Positions 1 to 7,251 of a stretch of 10,075 bases of DNA are shown piece by piece (position 1 is the stretch's first letter; each line of letters begins with the position of its first letter). The DNA is from a virus (lineage: Duplodnaviria > Heunggongvirae > Uroviricota > Caudoviricetes). The stretch is taken from the IMG/VR virus record IMGVR_UViG_3300014890_000017. One strand, given 5' to 3'. The notes under the pieces were generated by a model that did no database searches, was not told the DNA's origin, and worked only from the letters and a program-made list of their open reading frames with translations. The translations under genes and the position numbers were made by a program.

Positions 1-1251
1 GTGCTTACCGATACAAAATTAAAAAACCTCAAGCCGCAGGACAAACTGTACAAGGTCTCCGATCGTGACGGGCTGTATGTAGCTGTGCTTACGTCAGGAA
101 CGGTCTCGTTTCGCTATGACTACCGTATCAACGGTCGCCGCGAAACACTGGTAATCGGGCAGTATGGGCGTGACGGTATCAGTCTGGCAGAAGCGCGAGA
201 AGAACTGATTGCTGCAAAGAAGCTGCTTAAAGCAGGCCAGTCGCCGGCTGCGGCTAAACGTGACGGTATCAAAAAGATTCGTGGTGCCGAGACGTTTGCG
301 GTACATACCGACAGTTATATGAAACACGTCATCCTGGCTGACAGTACCCGCGCAATGAAGCAGTCGGTGATCGACCGTGACATACTTCCGGTTCTTGGCA
401 ACAAAATGATGGCTGAAATTACCACATCGATGGTTCGTGATTTGTGTGACCGGATTGTCGAACGCGGTGGCCGTGCAACAGCAGTACAGGCCAGGGAGAT
501 CATCAGCAGCGTATACCGTCACGCCAATGACCGTGGTCATGGTTTGTTTAATCCTGCGGCTGACATTAAACCTTCGTCTATCGCCATATTTAAACCACGA
601 GAGCGAACACTGACACCAGAAGAAATTGGCCTGTTCTTCCGCACGCTGGATGCCATTGGTGCAATGGGCACTATGAAAATGGCTTTAAAGCTGGTGCTTA
701 TCACTATGGTTCGTAAAGGTGAATTCACCAATGCAACGTGGGACGAAATAGATTTTAAAAAATGGACATGGACAATTCCTTCAGACCGCATGAAGGGAAG
801 CCGGGCGCACGTTATTTACCTGCCTAAACAGGCACAGGATATATTGGTCGGGTTGCAGATGTGCGCTGGTGGAAGTGAATATCTGGTTCCTGGTCGTTAC
901 AACTTCCGGAAGCCATTATCTAATGCCGCGCTGAACTCTCTGATCGACAGAACGGTGAAAATAATAAATGAAGATGGTGAGCATATTCAGGACTTCACCG
1001 TACACGATATGCGCCGTACAGCCAGTACGTTGTTGCATGAGGCTGGTTATCCTTCAGACTGGATTGAAAAGGCTCTGGCACATGAGCAGAAAGGTGTGCG
1101 CGCCGTATATAACAAAGCGGAATACGCCAGACAGCGCGCCTACATGTTGCAGCAGTGGGCCGATATGATTGATTCCTGGATTAACGGGGAGCATACGGAT
1201 CTGATTCCGTTCTCCCCGTCGAAGTTTGAGAAGTGGATGGCGGGGGAATAA
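1..1251 (+). CDS. int: Phage integrase, tyrosine recombinase (P4-like N-terminus)
   Basis: 416-aa ORF opening with GTG at position 1 (true start may lie at or just upstream of the window edge). N-terminus LTDTKLKNLKP...YKVSDRDGLY resembles P4-family integrase arm-binding domains; C-terminus has HDMRRTASTLL (His-x-x-Arg) and VRAVYNKAEY (tyrosine nucleophile). Stop TAA at 1249-1251. Confidence 0.9.
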   Translation: MLTDTKLKNLKPQDKLYKVSDRDGLYVAVLTSGTVSFRYDYRINGRRETLVIGQYGRDGISLAEAREELIAAKKLLKAGQSPAAAKRDGIKKIRGAETFAVHTDSYMKHVILADSTRAMKQSVIDRDILPVLGNKMMAEITTSMVRDLCDRIVERGGRATAVQAREIISSVYRHANDRGHGLFNPAADIKPSSIAIFKPRERTLTPEEIGLFFRTLDAIGAMGTMKMALKLVLITMVRKGEFTNATWDEIDFKKWTWTIPSDRMKGSRAHVIYLPKQAQDILVGLQMCAGGSEYLVPGRYNFRKPLSNAALNSLIDRTVKIINEDGEHIQDFTVHDMRRTASTLLHEAGYPSDWIEKALAHEQKGVRAVYNKAEYARQRAYMLQQWADMIDSWINGEHTDLIPFSPSKFEKWMAGE

Positions 1252-1254
1252 CGT

Positions 1255-1449
1255 TTAATTATTCTGCTGATTTTCTTCCATCTCGGCTTCTGCTGCCAGT
1301 GATTCAATTTTGTCTGCGAATATTGCTGACAGCGTTGCAAATTCAGCATCAGTGACAGCGGGAATGGGAACAAACCTGATCCCGCTGTGTGCAAGCATGT
1401 TTGCAGTTTCAAGGCATTTCCTTAAATCTGCTGGTGATGCCCGGTTCAT
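1255..1449 (-). CDS. Hypothetical small acidic protein (64 aa), translationally coupled to the methyltransferase
   Basis: Internal ATG (MNRASPADL...) of the 1255..1569 ORF; forms an ATGA start/stop overlap with the upstream methyltransferase stop at 1446-1448. Acidic C-terminus (AEAEMEENQQNN). Ends 3 bp from the convergent integrase stop. No family recognised. Confidence 0.45.
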   Translation of the reverse strand: MNRASPADLRKCLETANMLAHSGIRFVPIPAVTDAEFATLSAIFADKIESLAAEAEMEENQQNN

Positions 1450-2096
1450 GCTGCACGCTCCCGCCCCTGGTTGTCTGTTGGTGACAGCGGAGCATTGCTG
1501 AATGCATTTGTTAATCTGGCAATATCCAACGCGTATCCAGGGTGTAGTTGCACTGCCGGGTCTTCGCACTGATTACCCCAAACATCGAAGCCATGAGACG
1601 ACTGGCGGGCGAACAGTTCAATGCGAGAAACATCGCCTAACAATTGCACAAGTTTTTCACGAGCGATATCTGGCTTTCTTGAATGCTCAAGCCGCGGTGC
1701 GGTAAATGACTGAACGATCCCTGCATTAATGCGCGTAGGTAGTTTTCCCTTTACCGCAAACAGGCAATCTTCACTATTGGCGCGAGTCATGTGCCCCATA
1801 CCCATAACCAGTTTATCTGGTTGTCGACTACCACATTTTATCCACGTGAAGCCCTTCATCGTCATCAGACGAAATCCCCAGGCTTCAACAACTTTTAGTG
1901 CTTCGAGTGGTTGTGTTGGCACCCACCACATGGCCAACAGACAGTTTTCATCGGCCAAATCCCACACAGGAAGGCGGCAGATATCCAGCACACTCATAAC
2001 CGGATATTTAAAACCGGCACCGCGATTACCATCTGCGGCTTTGTCCCGGTATACCCAGGGTGGATCTGCATAGATTAGTGTGTATTTCTTAGTCAT
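1446..2096 (-). CDS. MT-A70-family DNA N6-adenine methyltransferase (phage orphan methylase)
   Basis: Conserved DPPW motif (LIYADPPWVY) near the N-terminus, typical of MT-A70/beta-class adenine MTases. ATG at 2096 (MTKKYTLIYADPPW) preferred over the ORF-track GTG at 2108. No adjacent restriction endonuclease gene. Confidence 0.8.
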   Translation of the reverse strand: MTKKYTLIYADPPWVYRDKAADGNRGAGFKYPVMSVLDICRLPVWDLADENCLLAMWWVPTQPLEALKVVEAWGFRLMTMKGFTWIKCGSRQPDKLVMGMGHMTRANSEDCLFAVKGKLPTRINAGIVQSFTAPRLEHSRKPDIAREKLVQLLGDVSRIELFARQSSHGFDVWGNQCEDPAVQLHPGYALDIARLTNAFSNAPLSPTDNQGRERAA

Positions 2097-2795: not shown

Positions 2796-3677
2796 TTACA
2801 TAGATGTTTCGTTTAATTCTTCCCGACGAACGCTGTAAACGTCGGTGGCTTTTGCCAGCAGCTCGTCATCATCTGAAAGTTTTTGTGCAATGTATTTGTA
2901 AGCCTTATCCAGTTCGGAGACAGTGCTGTAATTCATCGCTGCGCTGGTAAAGGCCATCAGCATTTCTTCTGGATCACGGCTATCCGCTTTACGCGTTTGC
3001 TCATCATGCTTTTTCGCTGGTTTAGCGTTGATCAGACTGTTCATTCCCGCAGCAGTAGTCGTTTGCGGAGTAATGTCTCGCTCAACGCGCGGTGCCGTTT
3101 CCTGTAATTCGTCTGGGGTGTAAACACCGAGAAGTACATCAGGAGCGTGCAGGCGAGCCCATCGTTTCGTGCAAAGATAGGCAAGTTGCTGGCGCGGATC
3201 CTGTTCCCACAATGGAGAGTTACGCACTCCGGCTTGCGCCATACTGATGGTAAGCTCACGGGGTTCTGCTTCTCCTTTAAGAACTGCTGACACAGTTACC
3301 GTCAGATTCGGTGATTTATCTGTTTTGCCGTTAACATTCGACCAGTCACCGCTCCAGCGATAATTCAGGCGTGTCGCTAGCAGGCTGGAAGAGGATACGA
3401 CCGCGTTTACCAACTGTGCTTCGTAGCCTAACGTTCCGTTTACCACATGCGTTTTCTGCGCCACGGCGAAAGGGTTCATTCCCCACTGTGCCGCCTGCAT
3501 GGTCACCGCCAGACAATCGGCAGGTTTGCCTTCAAGATGTTTCGGTACAGTCGCTTTGCTTTGTGACATCAACTCCGCGAAACGCACCAGTTGATTCATG
3601 CCCTCCGGGCTGAAGATTGCCGCAGCAGTACCTACAGTTGCGCCTGGTTGTGATGTGATTGCGATATCATTGCTCAT
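2796..3677 (-). CDS. RecT/Bet-family single-strand annealing recombinase
   Basis: 293 aa; segment AAQWGMNPFAVAQKTHVVNG resembles the lambda Bet / RecT core (Bet has QYGLNPW); lies immediately downstream of, and start-overlaps (ATGA), a PD-(D/E)XK exonuclease, the canonical exo-annealase pair. Confidence 0.75.
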   Translation of the reverse strand: MSNDIAITSQPGATVGTAAAIFSPEGMNQLVRFAELMSQSKATVPKHLEGKPADCLAVTMQAAQWGMNPFAVAQKTHVVNGTLGYEAQLVNAVVSSSSLLATRLNYRWSGDWSNVNGKTDKSPNLTVTVSAVLKGEAEPRELTISMAQAGVRNSPLWEQDPRQQLAYLCTKRWARLHAPDVLLGVYTPDELQETAPRVERDITPQTTTAAGMNSLINAKPAKKHDEQTRKADSRDPEEMLMAFTSAAMNYSTVSELDKAYKYIAQKLSDDDELLAKATDVYSVRREELNETSM

Positions 3678-4495
3678 ACGTACATATCCTGTTTACGTGC
3701 CCAGTCAGGGCGTTTAATAATTTCCACGCCGCCCCATTCATCATTGATGCGGCATTCGTGATAGGTATTCAGATCCCGGCGGAACAGAGCGTGCCCGGCA
3801 TCGACATCCGGCGCATCCAGCTCGAACACGCGTACCGGATACCGACCACAATCAATGCTTTCGCTCACGGCAAGAAAGAAAAAACCATGCGGCTGACCAG
3901 TAACCCTCATTGCGCCTTCGCGGTACATTGCGTCCTGCACGTGGTAGCGGAATTCCTCGATGTGGCGTGCAAAACGGTCCATATCTGCAACCTTTTTCAC
4001 GTCGACGATCACGTTGTGCTCGTTCAGCCATTTGTCTGGACGAATGCGGCACAACTCACCAGTCTCTTCATCGTTCCAGTACATTGATGCTTCGCAGTAA
4101 CCAGGTGCTTCCAGCATCCAGCGTGCCGCCGGGTGAGCCATTGCGCTATCACGCATCAGCTCCAGTTTCCGCCACTGCTCGGCATCAAGTACCGTAATCC
4201 CCATATCCGCTACATCACGAAGAAATGCCTCTTCGTCAGCTTTACCTTGTTTTGTCCGACGATCGAATTTCGGTGAAACGATGAAGCGTTTGTCAAACTC
4301 TCCAGGTTCCAGAAGCAGACAGTGCAGAGCAGTACCCATGTCCAGTGCAGACTTCTTCTCTTCGTCTTCTGGTGCTGCCTGAACCCATTTAAGAAGCGCC
4401 GGATTCTTGGCAACCATGTCCAGTTGCGACTTACTCACGCCGTCCCCGGCGTGGTAGTCTTCGTTGCTGATGTCGAAATAAATTCCCGGTTTCAT
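3674..4495 (-). CDS. PD-(D/E)XK exonuclease (exodeoxyribonuclease VIII / RecE-C-terminal-like)
   Basis: 273 aa; N-terminal YFDISNEDYHAGDGVSKSQL and catalytic-like RIRPDKW ... IVDVKKV motifs fit prophage exonuclease VIII-type PDDEXK nucleases; paired with the annealase. Confidence 0.75.
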   Translation of the reverse strand: MKPGIYFDISNEDYHAGDGVSKSQLDMVAKNPALLKWVQAAPEDEEKKSALDMGTALHCLLLEPGEFDKRFIVSPKFDRRTKQGKADEEAFLRDVADMGITVLDAEQWRKLELMRDSAMAHPAARWMLEAPGYCEASMYWNDEETGELCRIRPDKWLNEHNVIVDVKKVADMDRFARHIEEFRYHVQDAMYREGAMRVTGQPHGFFFLAVSESIDCGRYPVRVFELDAPDVDAGHALFRRDLNTYHECRINDEWGGVEIIKRPDWARKQDMYV

Positions 4496-4791
4496 GCCGC
4501 TTCCCTCTGCCCATCAATCCGATCCGCCAGATCCCAGCGGGCGATAATTGCCATTGCCTCGCGACGGTAGGCATCCATCAGTTCTTCGAACTCAGGGCTG
4601 TCTTTAGCAGCCTCCAGTACTTCCTGACGAACGCCTTTGCCTGTTACAACGTCGAAAGTTGAGGACAGTTGATGAAGTCGGATGCTCTCAATCAGTTCAA
4701 CTTGTCGGTCATATAGCTGTTCTGACAGGCGGTAGTCCTTATCGAATGCCAGCATGATTTTTTGAAGATTTTTCTGCTGATTAACGTTCAT
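4492..4791 (-). CDS. Hypothetical protein (about 100 aa), immediately upstream of and coupled to the exonuclease
   Basis: ATG at 4791 preceded by GGGAGGG; ATGA overlap with the exonuclease start at 4495. No family recognised; occupies the position of Gam-like host-nuclease inhibitors. Confidence 0.6.
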   Translation of the reverse strand: MNVNQQKNLQKIMLAFDKDYRLSEQLYDRQVELIESIRLHQLSSTFDVVTGKGVRQEVLEAAKDSPEFEELMDAYRREAMAIIARWDLADRIDGQREAA

Positions 4792-4793
4792 TA

Positions 4794-4946
4794 TCAGCCC
4801 TCCCATATCTCGTTATCGTTGGCCACATCGCGAGCTTCTTTGCTGACGAAAGCCCACTTAATGCCTTCCTGTAAGGTGCGGAACTTCCAGCTCATGAATC
4901 CGCATGCAGTAACGCAGTACCAACCGTTGATGATTTTCCACTGCAT
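4794..4946 (-). CDS. Small Trp-rich ORF (50 aa), first gene of the leftward operon
   Basis: Hand-translated, not in the ORF track because under 60 aa: MQWKIINGWYCVTACGFMSWKFRTLQEGIKWAFVSKEARDVANDNEIWEG. ATG at 4946 preceded by GAGGTAA about 7 nt upstream; stop TGA at 4794-4796, 2 nt before the next gene's ATG. Confidence 0.35.
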   Translation of the reverse strand: MQWKIINGWYCVTACGFMSWKFRTLQEGIKWAFVSKEARDVANDNEIWEG

Positions 4947-5052: not shown

Positions 5053-5077
5053 AATAAAAAAGCCGCCATGAGGCGGC
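5053..5077 (-). terminator. Rho-independent terminator downstream of the repressor gene
   Basis: Stem GCCGCC / GGCGGC with loop ATGA (5062-5077); on the minus strand it is followed by TTTTTTATT (plus AATAAAAAA, 5053-5061). Confidence 0.6.
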
Positions 5078-5099
5078 TTACTTGCTGAAAACTATAGTT

Positions 5100-5684
5100 T
5101 TATTGTTTGCTTTTTTCGTTCTGGTTGATGACAAATTCAATGTAACTTTCGATCTTTGCTTTCTCTGTTTCAGGTAACAATGCGTAGCGCGAGCGGTCAT
5201 AGTTGATAGTTGCAGGGTCGTGCGGGTGAATCAGTAGTTCATATCCGTGACGCCCGAATGCAGATGCAACATTCTCCAGGGTGGAAATGGAAACGCTGAC
5301 CTCATTGTTTAACAGGCGGCTGATTGTCACCTGGGCTACGCCGGATGCGCGGTGAAGTTTTCCCTGTGTTGAAAGGTCGCGGCTTTCGCTCATCCAGCGT
5401 TCCAGGTTGTGAGCCGCCAGCTGACCAATGTCGCTTGGTCCGACAGGCTGAAAACCCTCCTGAGAAAGCGAGCGATCGATATCAAGCCAGTTACGTGGTT
5501 TATTGGCGGCAGCTTCAATTTTTCGTGCAACCTGGTCGCCGATAACCTTCTTGCCAAGAGCCCAGCGGTTTACCAGATTTGCCTGAGTTCCAAGTTTTTC
5601 TGCCATCCGCGTCTGAACACCATTGAATTCACGGTCGATCAAGTCGTTGAGATTTTGCCTGCGGACGTCCTGGATACTTTTCAT
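5100..5684 (-). CDS. Prophage repressor candidate with two tandem XRE-type HTH domains (CI-like by position)
   Basis: 194 aa; HTH-like segments NGVQTRMAEKLGTQANLVNRWALGKK and LHRASGVAQVTISRLLNNEVSVSISTLENVASAFG; divergent from a Cro-like gene across an operator-rich intergenic region; no LexA/S24 peptidase-like motif recognised. Confidence 0.7.
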   Translation of the reverse strand: MKSIQDVRRQNLNDLIDREFNGVQTRMAEKLGTQANLVNRWALGKKVIGDQVARKIEAAANKPRNWLDIDRSLSQEGFQPVGPSDIGQLAAHNLERWMSESRDLSTQGKLHRASGVAQVTISRLLNNEVSVSISTLENVASAFGRHGYELLIHPHDPATINYDRSRYALLPETEKAKIESYIEFVINQNEKSKQ

Positions 5685-6435: not shown

Positions 6436-7251
6436 ATGAGCAGACATGCAACAGATTGGGCCTGGGAGACAGATCCAGGTAGCTCGTCATTAAAGCTCAT
6501 ACTGCTCTCGATGGCTGACAGAGCCGATGAATATAACCTCTGCTACCCCAGCATAGAACGCCTCGTTAAAGACACTTGCCTGAATAAAAAAACCGTGCAG
6601 GCCGGGCTTATATCGCTCATGAAAATGGGGCTTATTTCAGATACCGGAGAGAGAAAGGGAGCGACGAAAAGAGTGCGGGTTTTCTCTCTTAATATAACCA
6701 AAAACGGGAACATTAAAGGCAACCGGGAAGGGGGTAATGGACCCGAAAACGGTAATGTTACCGAAAACGGGAATATACCCAAAAACGGGATGTTGAATGA
6801 TCCCAAAAACGGGATGTTGAATGATCCCAAAAACGGGATCCAGAACCAGTCATATAACCAGTCATTTAACCAAGAGAGGGAGAGCAGGACAAAAAGCGGG
6901 GATTCTGTGCCTCATGACCCCGGCGCAAACAACGCCGTGATGAATAACTTTGTTCCTCCTGGTGGGCCAGGGCAATTAGGCAAATTTGTCATGCATGAAC
7001 AATGGCAGCCATCAGATGACTTTCTTCGGAAAAGCTCATTGCAGGGGATCTACCTGGACAGTCTGCCAACGGCACAGGAACTTGCAGAGTTCAGAATTTA
7101 CTGGATGGCTGAGGGTAAGGCATACCATCAGGCACAGTGGGAGCAGAAGCTGGCAAGGCGGCTGCAGATTAGCAGACAGAAGCAATCAACATTACCTGAT
7201 AACAACGTTCCGCACTGGAACAGCCCTGAAGCATGGGAGGATTTCTTGTGA
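6436..7251 (+). CDS. Replication initiator, lambda O-like (N-terminal HTH, internal ori iterons, DnaT-like C-terminus)
   Basis: 271 aa; GGAG SD 7 nt upstream of the ATG; N-terminal HTH-like region (SLKLILLSMADRADEYNLCYPSIERLVKDTCLNKKTVQAGL); low-complexity NG-rich linker encoded by a DNA direct-repeat array; immediately precedes and overlaps (GTGA) a lambda-P homologue. Confidence 0.75.
   Translation: MSRHATDWAWETDPGSSSLKLILLSMADRADEYNLCYPSIERLVKDTCLNKKTVQAGLISLMKMGLISDTGERKGATKRVRVFSLNITKNGNIKGNREGGNGPENGNVTENGNIPKNGMLNDPKNGMLNDPKNGIQNQSYNQSFNQERESRTKSGDSVPHDPGANNAVMNNFVPPGGPGQLGKFVMHEQWQPSDDFLRKSSLQGIYLDSLPTAQELAEFRIYWMAEGKAYHQAQWEQKLARRLQISRQKQSTLPDNNVPHWNSPEAWEDFL
6696..6850. repeat. Iteron array (putative origin of replication) inside the O-like gene
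   Basis: Six copies of the core AAAACGG(G/T)A at 6701, 6746, 6764, 6782, 6806 and 6830, including two perfect tandem 24-bp repeats CCCAAAAACGGGATGTTGAATGAT (6778-6801 and 6802-6825). Confidence 0.7.

What the first reader, a model, noticed from the sequence alone, without database searches (positions are those of the whole stretch)
4492..4791. Unknown 100-aa protein in the Gam position upstream of exo and recT
It is translationally coupled (ATGA) to the PD-(D/E)XK exonuclease and precedes the annealase, where lambda encodes the RecBCD inhibitor Gam, but shows no resemblance to lambda Gam that I can recognise. It may be a non-homologous host-nuclease inhibitor or recombination accessory factor.
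Basis: inference. Interest (0 to 1): 0.45.

Follow-up and report, generated by a model that had tools for sequence, protein, structure and literature searches.

The report
Cryptic lambda Gam homolog in prophage
The unknown 99-residue protein ahead of the prophage's recombination genes is a highly diverged, so far unannotated relative of phage lambda's Gam protein (an inhibitor of the host DNA-degrading enzyme RecBCD), but the phages that carry it are unexpectedly rich in the Chi sites that RecBCD recognises, so whether it shuts RecBCD down as Gam does remains open.

The parts
4492..4791 (-). Gene for the 99-aa acidic (pI 4.9) all-helical protein; a diverged Gam-fold protein (phiV10 p38 / epsilon15 gp36 family, PHROG 856)
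4798..4804 (-). Shine-Dalgarno GGGAGGG, 6 nt upstream of the ATG at 4791
   Evidence: read from the sequence
4492..4495 (-). ATGA stop/start overlap between the Gam-like gene and the exonuclease gene (translational coupling)
   Evidence: the same 4-nt overlap occurs in phiV10, epsilon15, L084, L086, L087, L088, L089
3674..4495 (-). RecE-like PD-(D/E)XK exonuclease (DUF3799; PHROG 412 'exonuclease VIII')
2796..3677 (-). RecT single-strand annealing protein, ATGA overlap with exo
4794..4946 (-). 50-aa Trp-rich ORF (PHROG 898, unknown function), first gene of the operon; stops 2 nt before the Gam-like gene
   Evidence: conserved in phiV10, epsilon15, L084, L086, L087
4980..5008 (-). Promoter-like site TTGACA-17-AATTAT, candidate early-left promoter, in the region where epsilon15 has annotated repressor operators
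   Evidence: consensus scan only; epsilon15 operator annotation
5100..5684 (-). Double-HTH prophage repressor, followed by a terminator-like hairpin at 5060-5079

Best explanation
The gene encodes a highly diverged member of the lambda Gam superfamily, a third sequence type alongside canonical Gam (PF06064) and phi80 GamL (PF28165). Shown here: it is a conserved, acidic, all-helical protein of about 99 aa. Its residues 31-87 are homologous to GamS residues 33-90. Its predicted fold superposes on the GamS crystal structure. It always sits at the head of a phage recombination module (RecE-like or YqaJ exonuclease and/or RecT) in the repressor-controlled early-left operon, usually translationally coupled to it. 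Inferred: like Gam, it acts as a dimeric DNA mimic that occupies the DNA-end-binding site of a host double-strand-end-processing enzyme. RecBCD is the prime candidate. This would keep the linear ends and rolling-circle tails that RecE/RecT work on from being degraded after the phage early genes switch on. Because its N-terminal helix differs from Gam's RecB-channel plug, and because carrier phages keep many Chi sites, inhibition may be partial, restricted in time, or directed at a different enzyme surface than Gam's.
Against: No experiment exists. The family fails the curated Pfam Gam threshold. The N-terminal 30 residues, which in Gam form the helix that fills the RecB 3'-ssDNA channel (PMC5218532), are not detectably conserved except for an aromatic pair (F16/Y20 against W15/Y19). 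GamL, the proven second inhibitor, keeps exactly that N-terminal segment. Chi: phiV10, epsilon15, HEMP4 and Tyrion have 8, 6, 9 and 10 Chi sites, against 1.6-3.1 expected under synonymous-codon shuffling (P<=0.007 each). Lambda has 0. [quoted passage not shown] Foldseek searches did not retrieve Gam. Mog is also followed by other, unrelated small proteins in 29 of 80 loci, so the Mog link is suggestive rather than specific. The window's own prophage has no mog.
Confidence: 0.6

Rival explanations
1. It is a Gam-fold DNA mimic that has been retargeted. With a replaced N-terminal helix it does not block RecBCD outright. Instead it binds another DNA-binding host enzyme or defence protein (for example SbcCD or a Kiwa KwaB-like protein), or it modulates RecBCD in a way that leaves the Chi response intact. 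The phage would then still rely on Chi for protection from RecBCD.
For: The N-terminal plug helix is not conserved, although it is the one segment shared by the two proven inhibitors Gam and GamL. Chi is significantly enriched and almost entirely on one strand (34 of 35 sites) in carrier genomes, the signature of phages on whose DNA RecBCD stays active (PMC3784561; PMC12315714). Lambda Gam itself is promiscuous and also binds KwaB of Kiwa (PMC11785009).
Against: The same hosts and the same genomic slot as Gam and GamL, the link to Mog, and mutual exclusivity with canonical Gam all fit most simply with the same target. Chi avoidance is a statistical correlate with acknowledged exceptions (11 of 27 HK75-type phages) and no known cause. 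The Klebsiella member shows no Chi enrichment.
Confidence: 0.25
2. It is an accessory subunit or regulator of the phage recombinase itself, for example a partner of the RecE-like exonuclease or of RecT, rather than an inhibitor of a host enzyme.
For: Tight translational coupling to the exonuclease, or directly to RecT, in nearly all loci. This coupling often accompanies stoichiometric partners.
Against: The partner downstream changes family (DUF3799, YqaJ, RecT) while this protein stays the same, which is hard to reconcile with a specific physical partner. The only homolog of known function, Gam, acts on host RecBCD and not on Exo or Beta. In Tyrion a 45-aa ORF separates it from exo.
Confidence: 0.1
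3. The resemblance to Gam is a chance match between two short, acidic, helical proteins, and the protein has an unrelated function.
Confidence: 0.04

Closest known systems
Lambda Gam / GamS (Pfam PF06064, PDB 2UUZ, 5MBV), host-nuclease (RecBCD) inhibitor
   Same: About 98-99 aa, acidic, all-helical. Residues 31-87 are homologous to GamS 33-90, including the invariant Gly (G53/G56) and the acidic E-F-x-E motif (E67-F68 / E71-F72). The predicted fold superposes at 1.5 A. The gene lies in the early-left operon immediately ahead of the recombination genes, with a kil gene upstream in some relatives.
   Different: It fails the Pfam model. The N-terminal helix sequence is different (MNxxQQxxLKKIM..F..DY against MNAY..DRIE..W..HYQQ). 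It is paired with RecE-like/RecT rather than Exo/Beta. Its carrier phages are Chi-rich whereas lambda has no Chi. There are no functional data.
phi80/Lula GamL (Pfam PF28165, PHROG 1050) with its partner Mog/Agt
   Same: A second diverged Gam-fold sequence type in the same slot. Some members of the present family have a Mog homolog directly upstream, exactly as gamL does.
   Different: No detectable sequence similarity to GamL (hhalign score 13, within the null). GamL shares Gam's N-terminal 26 residues and differs in the body, whereas this family shares the body and differs at the N-terminus. The window's prophage has no mog.
P22 Abc2, Mu Gam (Ku-like), T7 gp5.9: non-homologous anti-RecBCD proteins
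   Same: Small early phage proteins that neutralise RecBCD and are often linked to recombination modules.
   Different: Unrelated folds and sequences; there is no similarity to this protein (no Pfam hits).

Membership tests
Lambda Gam family (PF06064) | Match to the curated Pfam Gam HMM above its gathering threshold | tested here: not met
   No hit for the window protein at E<=1. Among 15 diverse family members only one gives a sub-threshold hit, E 0.0042, although that is the best Pfam hit of any member.
Lambda Gam family (PF06064) | Homology detectable by profile methods | tested here: met
   hhalign prob 87%, E 3.7e-6; real score 36.1 against shuffle maxima of 19-22; reciprocal HMM hits at P about 1e-8 to 1e-9; reciprocal best ORF in genome-wide scans.
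Lambda Gam family (PF06064) | GamS three-dimensional fold | tested here: met
Lambda Gam family (PF06064) | Conserved N-terminal helix that inserts into the RecB ssDNA channel | tested here: not met
   A helix is predicted (residues 3-36 with a kink at 18-19), but its sequence is not alignable with Gam's beyond an aromatic pair. Gam and GamL share this segment at E 7.5e-8, and the target does not.
Lambda Gam family (PF06064) | Small acidic protein of about 98 aa (GamS form) | tested here: met
   99 aa, pI 4.86, net charge -5. The family ranges over pI 4.55-5.19, against 4.57-4.99 for Gam.
Lambda Gam family (PF06064) | Encoded in the early-left operon directly upstream of the phage recombination genes | tested here: met
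Lambda Gam family (PF06064) | Homodimer | not tested
Lambda Gam family (PF06064) | Binds RecBCD and inhibits all its activities | not testable with these tools
   Requires biochemistry or genetics.
Lambda Gam family (PF06064) | Correlate, not a defining feature: the carrier phage genome avoids Chi | tested here: not met
   Chi is enriched in 4 of 5 carrier genomes under a codon-aware null, while the lambda control has 0.
phi80 GamL family (PF28165) | Sequence membership | tested here: not met
   The precomputed Pfam column is empty for all 52 relatives, whereas GamL relatives all carry PF28165. hhalign of A2 against A5 gives score 13.0, with a null maximum of 16.7. The local Pfam copy lacks PF28165.
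phi80 GamL family (PF28165) | Mog/Agt partner gene immediately upstream | tested here: inconclusive
   Absent from the window. Present upstream of the divergent members in L084, L086 and L087.
Abc2 (PF11043) / Mu Gam / T7 gp5.9 | Sequence membership | tested here: not met
   No Pfam, NCBIfam or PDB sequence hits.

The most novel reading that the evidence does not exclude
The Gam scaffold is modular. Gam and GamL share the RecB-plugging N-terminal helix but have different bodies, while this family keeps the Gam body and carries a different N-terminal helix. The protein would then be a retargeted DNA mimic that spares RecBCD's Chi response, or acts on another end-binding enzyme or defence system. 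That would explain why Uetakevirus-type phages carry their own RecET, a Gam-fold protein and a selected excess of co-oriented Chi sites all at once, a combination that current 'manipulate or supersede' models treat as mutually exclusive.
Probability: 0.25. Interest if true: 0.65.

Novelty: new member of a known kind. Interest (0 to 1): 0.4.

Why it matters
First, the gene is in about 10% of complete E. coli genomes and in Salmonella, Klebsiella, Enterobacter and Citrobacter phages, yet it is 'hypothetical' in RefSeq, Pfam, NCBIfam and PHROGs. A name and a testable function can now be attached to it. Second, surveys that relate phage recombination strategy to Chi content scored RecBCD inhibitors by the Pfam Gam and Abc2 models or by known sequence types (PMC3784561; PMC12315714). 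This family would be missed, so some 'recombinase but no inhibitor' phages may be misclassified; L088, a lambdoid-type background, is a candidate. Third, if it does inhibit RecBCD, these Chi-rich carrier phages are exceptions to the rule that inhibitor-encoding phages avoid Chi. If it does not, it shows the Gam fold being reused for another target. Fourth, a native Gam-type partner of a compact RecE-like/RecT pair could be useful for recombineering and for protecting linear DNA in cell-free systems.

Tried and rejected
- Pairwise BLASTP against lambda Gam gave only a 33-residue match (E 0.002) in a register that the profile and structure analyses do not support, so I discarded it.
- phmmer and a narrow-profile hmmsearch against PDB sequences found nothing relevant; the CRASP-2 hits at E about 0.6 are noise.
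- The first AF2 model, built from a shallow alignment, was poor (pLDDT 70), and its Foldseek PDB search was uninformative. Rebuilding with divergent members raised pLDDT to 93.
- Foldseek against BFVD gave a TM 0.78 hit to an unnamed UniParc entry that I could not identify, and did not list Gam.
- The exhaustive 1.84-billion-protein profile search used the narrow alignment A1. It found only 30 representatives and did not reach Gam.
- The Chi counts were first judged against Markov models. I repeated them with synonymous-codon shuffling to exclude a codon-usage or strand artefact, and the enrichment survived ((timed out)).
- The hypothesis that Mog is always followed by a Gam-fold gene was rejected: 29 of 80 loci have other small proteins there (one search was flawed by an ORF-start filter and was redone).
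- The 50-aa upstream ORF was tested as a Kil, KilR or cIII analogue, with no similarity.
- Papers I could not obtain: Court et al. 2007 (GamS structure), Kropinski et al. 2007 (epsilon15 genome) and Rotman et al. 2012 (GamL/Mog). The supplements of Zheng et al. 2025 are not held.
- No paper mentions the protein by accession or PHROG number.

Full report
WHAT IS THERE. The window is the integrase-to-replication segment of an E. coli prophage of the phiV10/epsilon15 type (genus Uetakevirus). It matches hundreds of E. coli chromosomes at about 97% identity over 93-95% of its length and is syntenic with phiV10 and epsilon15. On the minus strand the order is as follows:
- a double-HTH repressor (5100-5684) with a terminator-like hairpin;
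- a promoter-like site, TTGACA-17-AATTAT (5008-4980), where epsilon15 has annotated repressor operators;
- a 50-aa ORF (4946-4794);
- the target (4791-4492);
- a DUF3799 RecE-like PD-(D/E)XK exonuclease (4495-3674);
- RecT (3677-2796);
- an AlpA-type excisionase, a PerC-like activator, an MT-A70 methyltransferase and a DUF1382 protein, with the integrase on the plus strand.

The target has a GGGAGGG Shine-Dalgarno sequence 6 nt before its ATG. Its TGA overlaps the exo ATG as ATGA, and exo overlaps recT in the same way.

IT IS A REAL, CONSERVED, UNANNOTATED GENE. The protein is phiV10 p38 / epsilon15 gp36. All 36 phage records that carry it call it 'hypothetical', where they are annotated at all, as does PGAP in 543 of 5,426 complete E. 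coli genomes. Pfam and NCBIfam give nothing, and its PHROG (856) is 'unknown function'. The family is small. A profile search of 1.84 billion representatives found 30 clusters, all enterobacterial as far as they are named. Lengths are 97-102 aa and identities go down to 33%.

IT IS A REMOTE HOMOLOG OF LAMBDA GAM. I fetched lambda gam and built a profile of true Gam proteins, all carrying PF06064, and a diverse profile of the target family. Several lines of evidence agree.
- hhalign gives 87% probability and E 3.7e-6 over 57 co-linear columns, target 31-87 against GamS 33-90.
- The score of 36.1 compares with maxima of 19.4 (200 column shuffles), 22.2 (200 block shuffles) and 18.5 (reversed profiles). 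Reversing both profiles restores the signal.
- HMMER agrees in both directions: the Gam HMM hits member P0057 at 24 bits, and the family HMM hits many Gams at 20-22 bits.
- As an unbiased test, I scanned every stop-to-stop ORF. Among 871 lambda ORFs the family HMM's best hit is gam (E 0.004). Among 198 window ORFs the Gam HMM's best hit is this ORF (E 0.006). The ortholog ranks first in each of four complete Uetakevirus genomes.
- Pfam's own Gam model is the best weak hit of any family member.
- With the diverse alignment, AlphaFold2 gave a confident model (pLDDT 93, pTM 0.77; helices 3-17, 20-36, 39-52, 56-63, 66-98).
- Both families are about 98-100 aa with pI 4.5-5.2.

WHICH PART IS CONSERVED. 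The similarity lies in the C-terminal two-thirds: the invariant Gly, the E-F-x-E motif and the last long helix. The first 30 or so residues align only weakly, through an aromatic pair (F16/Y20 against W15/Y19). According to the RecBCD-GamS cryo-EM study, Gam is a dimer whose acidic surface overlaps the duplex-DNA site on the RecB arm and whose N-terminal helix fills the 3'-ssDNA channel of RecB (PMC5218532). So the plug is the diverged part.

Zheng et al. 2025 (PMC12315714) describe a second Gam-fold sequence type, phi80 GamL, which blocks RecBCD. I fetched it and built its profile. The three-way comparison is complementary:
- Gam and GamL share only the N-terminal 26 or so residues (E 7.5e-8).
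- Gam and the target share only the body (E 3.8e-6).
- GamL and the target share nothing above noise.

The target family is thus a third sequence type, and it is not covered by PF06064, PF28165 or the two PHROGs labelled 'gam-like host nuclease inhibitor'.

CONTEXT SUPPORTS A GAM-LIKE ROLE. The position is conserved far beyond the phiV10 clade.
- At 38-45% identity the gene still overlaps a DUF3799 exonuclease followed by RecT (L084, L086, L087).
- In a lambdoid background with an S24 repressor, the order is KilR-target-exo-RecT (L088), mirroring lambda's kil-gam-bet-exo.
- In L089 and in some E. coli genomes the partner is a YqaJ (lambda-Exo-type) nuclease.
- In the most divergent member the gene overlaps recT directly (L085).
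- None of 89 loci with this gene has a canonical Gam within 5 kb.
- In L084, L086 and L087 the gene immediately upstream is a full-length homolog (45-68% identity, E down to 9e-119) of phi80 Mog/Agt, annotated as 'modifier of Gam' and as the antitoxin without which GamL is toxic.

A survey of 80 Mog loci tempers this last point. GamL follows Mog in 51 of them, but other unrelated small proteins occupy the same slot in 29. The window's prophage has no mog.

COUNTER-EVIDENCE: CHI. Bobay et al. 2013 (PMC3784561) found that lambdoid phages with a recombinase and Gam or Abc2 avoid Chi (median O/E 0-0.3), whereas those with a recombinase but no inhibitor over-represent it (2.5). Zheng et al. [quoted passage not shown]

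I counted GCTGGTGG in five complete carrier genomes from four host genera. My second-order Markov expectation for lambda reproduces the published value (2.70 against 2.703). Expected values in the table are from 400 synonymous-codon shuffles that keep protein sequences and codon usage.

| Genome | Chi observed | Expected | P (>= observed) |
|---|---|---|---|
| phiV10 | 8 | 1.6 | 0 of 400 shuffles |
| epsilon15 | 6 | 2.1 | 0.007 |
| HEMP4 | 9 | 3.1 | 0 of 400 shuffles |
| Tyrion | 10 | 2.4 | 0 of 400 shuffles |
| Klebsiella Kp4865-1 | 2 | 3.7 | 0.95 |
| lambda (control) | 0 | 2.6 | 1.0 |

Of the 35 sites, 34 are on the strand of the structural genes. These phages therefore look like phages on whose DNA RecBCD remains active. 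The correlation has exceptions (for example 11 of 27 HK75-type phages) and no accepted cause, so it does not refute inhibition. It does lower my confidence that the protein is a full functional equivalent of Gam. Together with the replaced N-terminal helix, it keeps open a retargeted or partial-inhibitor reading. Lambda Gam itself is known to bind at least one other DNA-binding defence protein, KwaB (PMC11785009).

CONCLUSION. Homology to Gam in sequence, predicted fold and genomic slot is well supported (about 0.95). The mechanism is inferred: a dimeric DNA mimic that blocks a host dsDNA-end-processing enzyme so that RecE/RecT substrates and rolling-circle tails survive. I rate this about 0.6 with RecBCD as the target and about 0.25 for a different or modified target. 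It is a new member (a third sequence type) of a known kind, not a new kind of system. Interest is moderate. The gene is common and unannotated, it may confound published classifications of 'inhibitor-less' recombinase phages, and the co-occurrence of a Gam-fold protein with selected Chi sites is a small, testable puzzle.

Noticed in passing
L090-L094 (complete phiV10, epsilon15, Kp4865-1, HEMP4, Tyrion genomes); window 865-872 (+): Uetakevirus genomes carry 2-10 Chi sites (GCTGGTGG), and 34 of 35 lie on the strand of the structural genes. Four of the five genomes are significantly enriched under synonymous-codon shuffling. The window's single Chi lies in the integrase gene.
   Followed up: yes
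L097-L176 (Mog loci), e.g. L100, L128, L142, just downstream of the Mog match: The phi80 Mog/Agt homolog (PHROG 1376, no Pfam) is followed 9-11 nt downstream by a variable small gene. It is GamL in 51 of 80 loci, a 65-aa protein (MNITCECVD...) in about 22, a 60-aa protein in 4, a 63-aa protein in 2, or the present family in L084, L086 and L087. The alternatives have no Pfam hit and could be further inhibitor or toxin types partnered with Mog.
   Followed up: partly
window 4794-4946 (-): A 50-aa Trp-rich ORF (PHROG 898, unknown function) is the first gene after the putative early-left promoter. It is conserved in phiV10, epsilon15, L084, L086 and L087, and shows no similarity to lambda Kil, phi80 Kil, KilR or cIII.
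   Followed up: partly
L096 7555-7836 (phi80 gamL) against the lambda Gam family: Gam and GamL share only their N-terminal 26 or so residues (MNAYLTYDRIE..RW; hhalign E 7.5e-8) and are otherwise unalignable. This complements the target family, which shares only the C-terminal body with Gam, and suggests modular evolution of the Gam fold.
   Followed up: partly
L002 4797-6557 (phiV10 p37) against window 2796-4495 (-): The phiV10 RefSeq record annotates RecE and RecT as a single fused 586-aa CDS. In the window, and in epsilon15, Tyrion and the metagenomic loci, they are two genes with a 4-nt overlap, so the phiV10 fusion may be a frameshift or an annotation artefact.
   Followed up: no
window 6733-6872 (+), inside the DnaT-like replication initiator gene 6436-7251: Three adjacent tandem-repeat arrays lie here: an 18-bp unit x3.1, a perfect 24-bp unit x2.6 and a 12-bp unit x2.4. 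They encode an Asn/Gly/Pro-rich linker (…NGNIPKNGMLNDPKNGMLNDPKNG…). They look like origin iterons embedded in the initiator gene, as in lambda O.
   Followed up: partly
L094 33585-33722 (Enterobacter phage Tyrion gp37): In Tyrion a 45-aa ORF is inserted between the Gam-like gene and the exonuclease, overlapping each by 4 nt. It was the only locus seen where the two are not directly coupled.
   Followed up: no
window 1255-1569 (-): This is a DUF1382 protein, the same family as lambda orf63 in the b-region side of the early-left operon. It shows that small lambda-like accessory genes are shared between this podovirus-type prophage and lambda.
   Followed up: no
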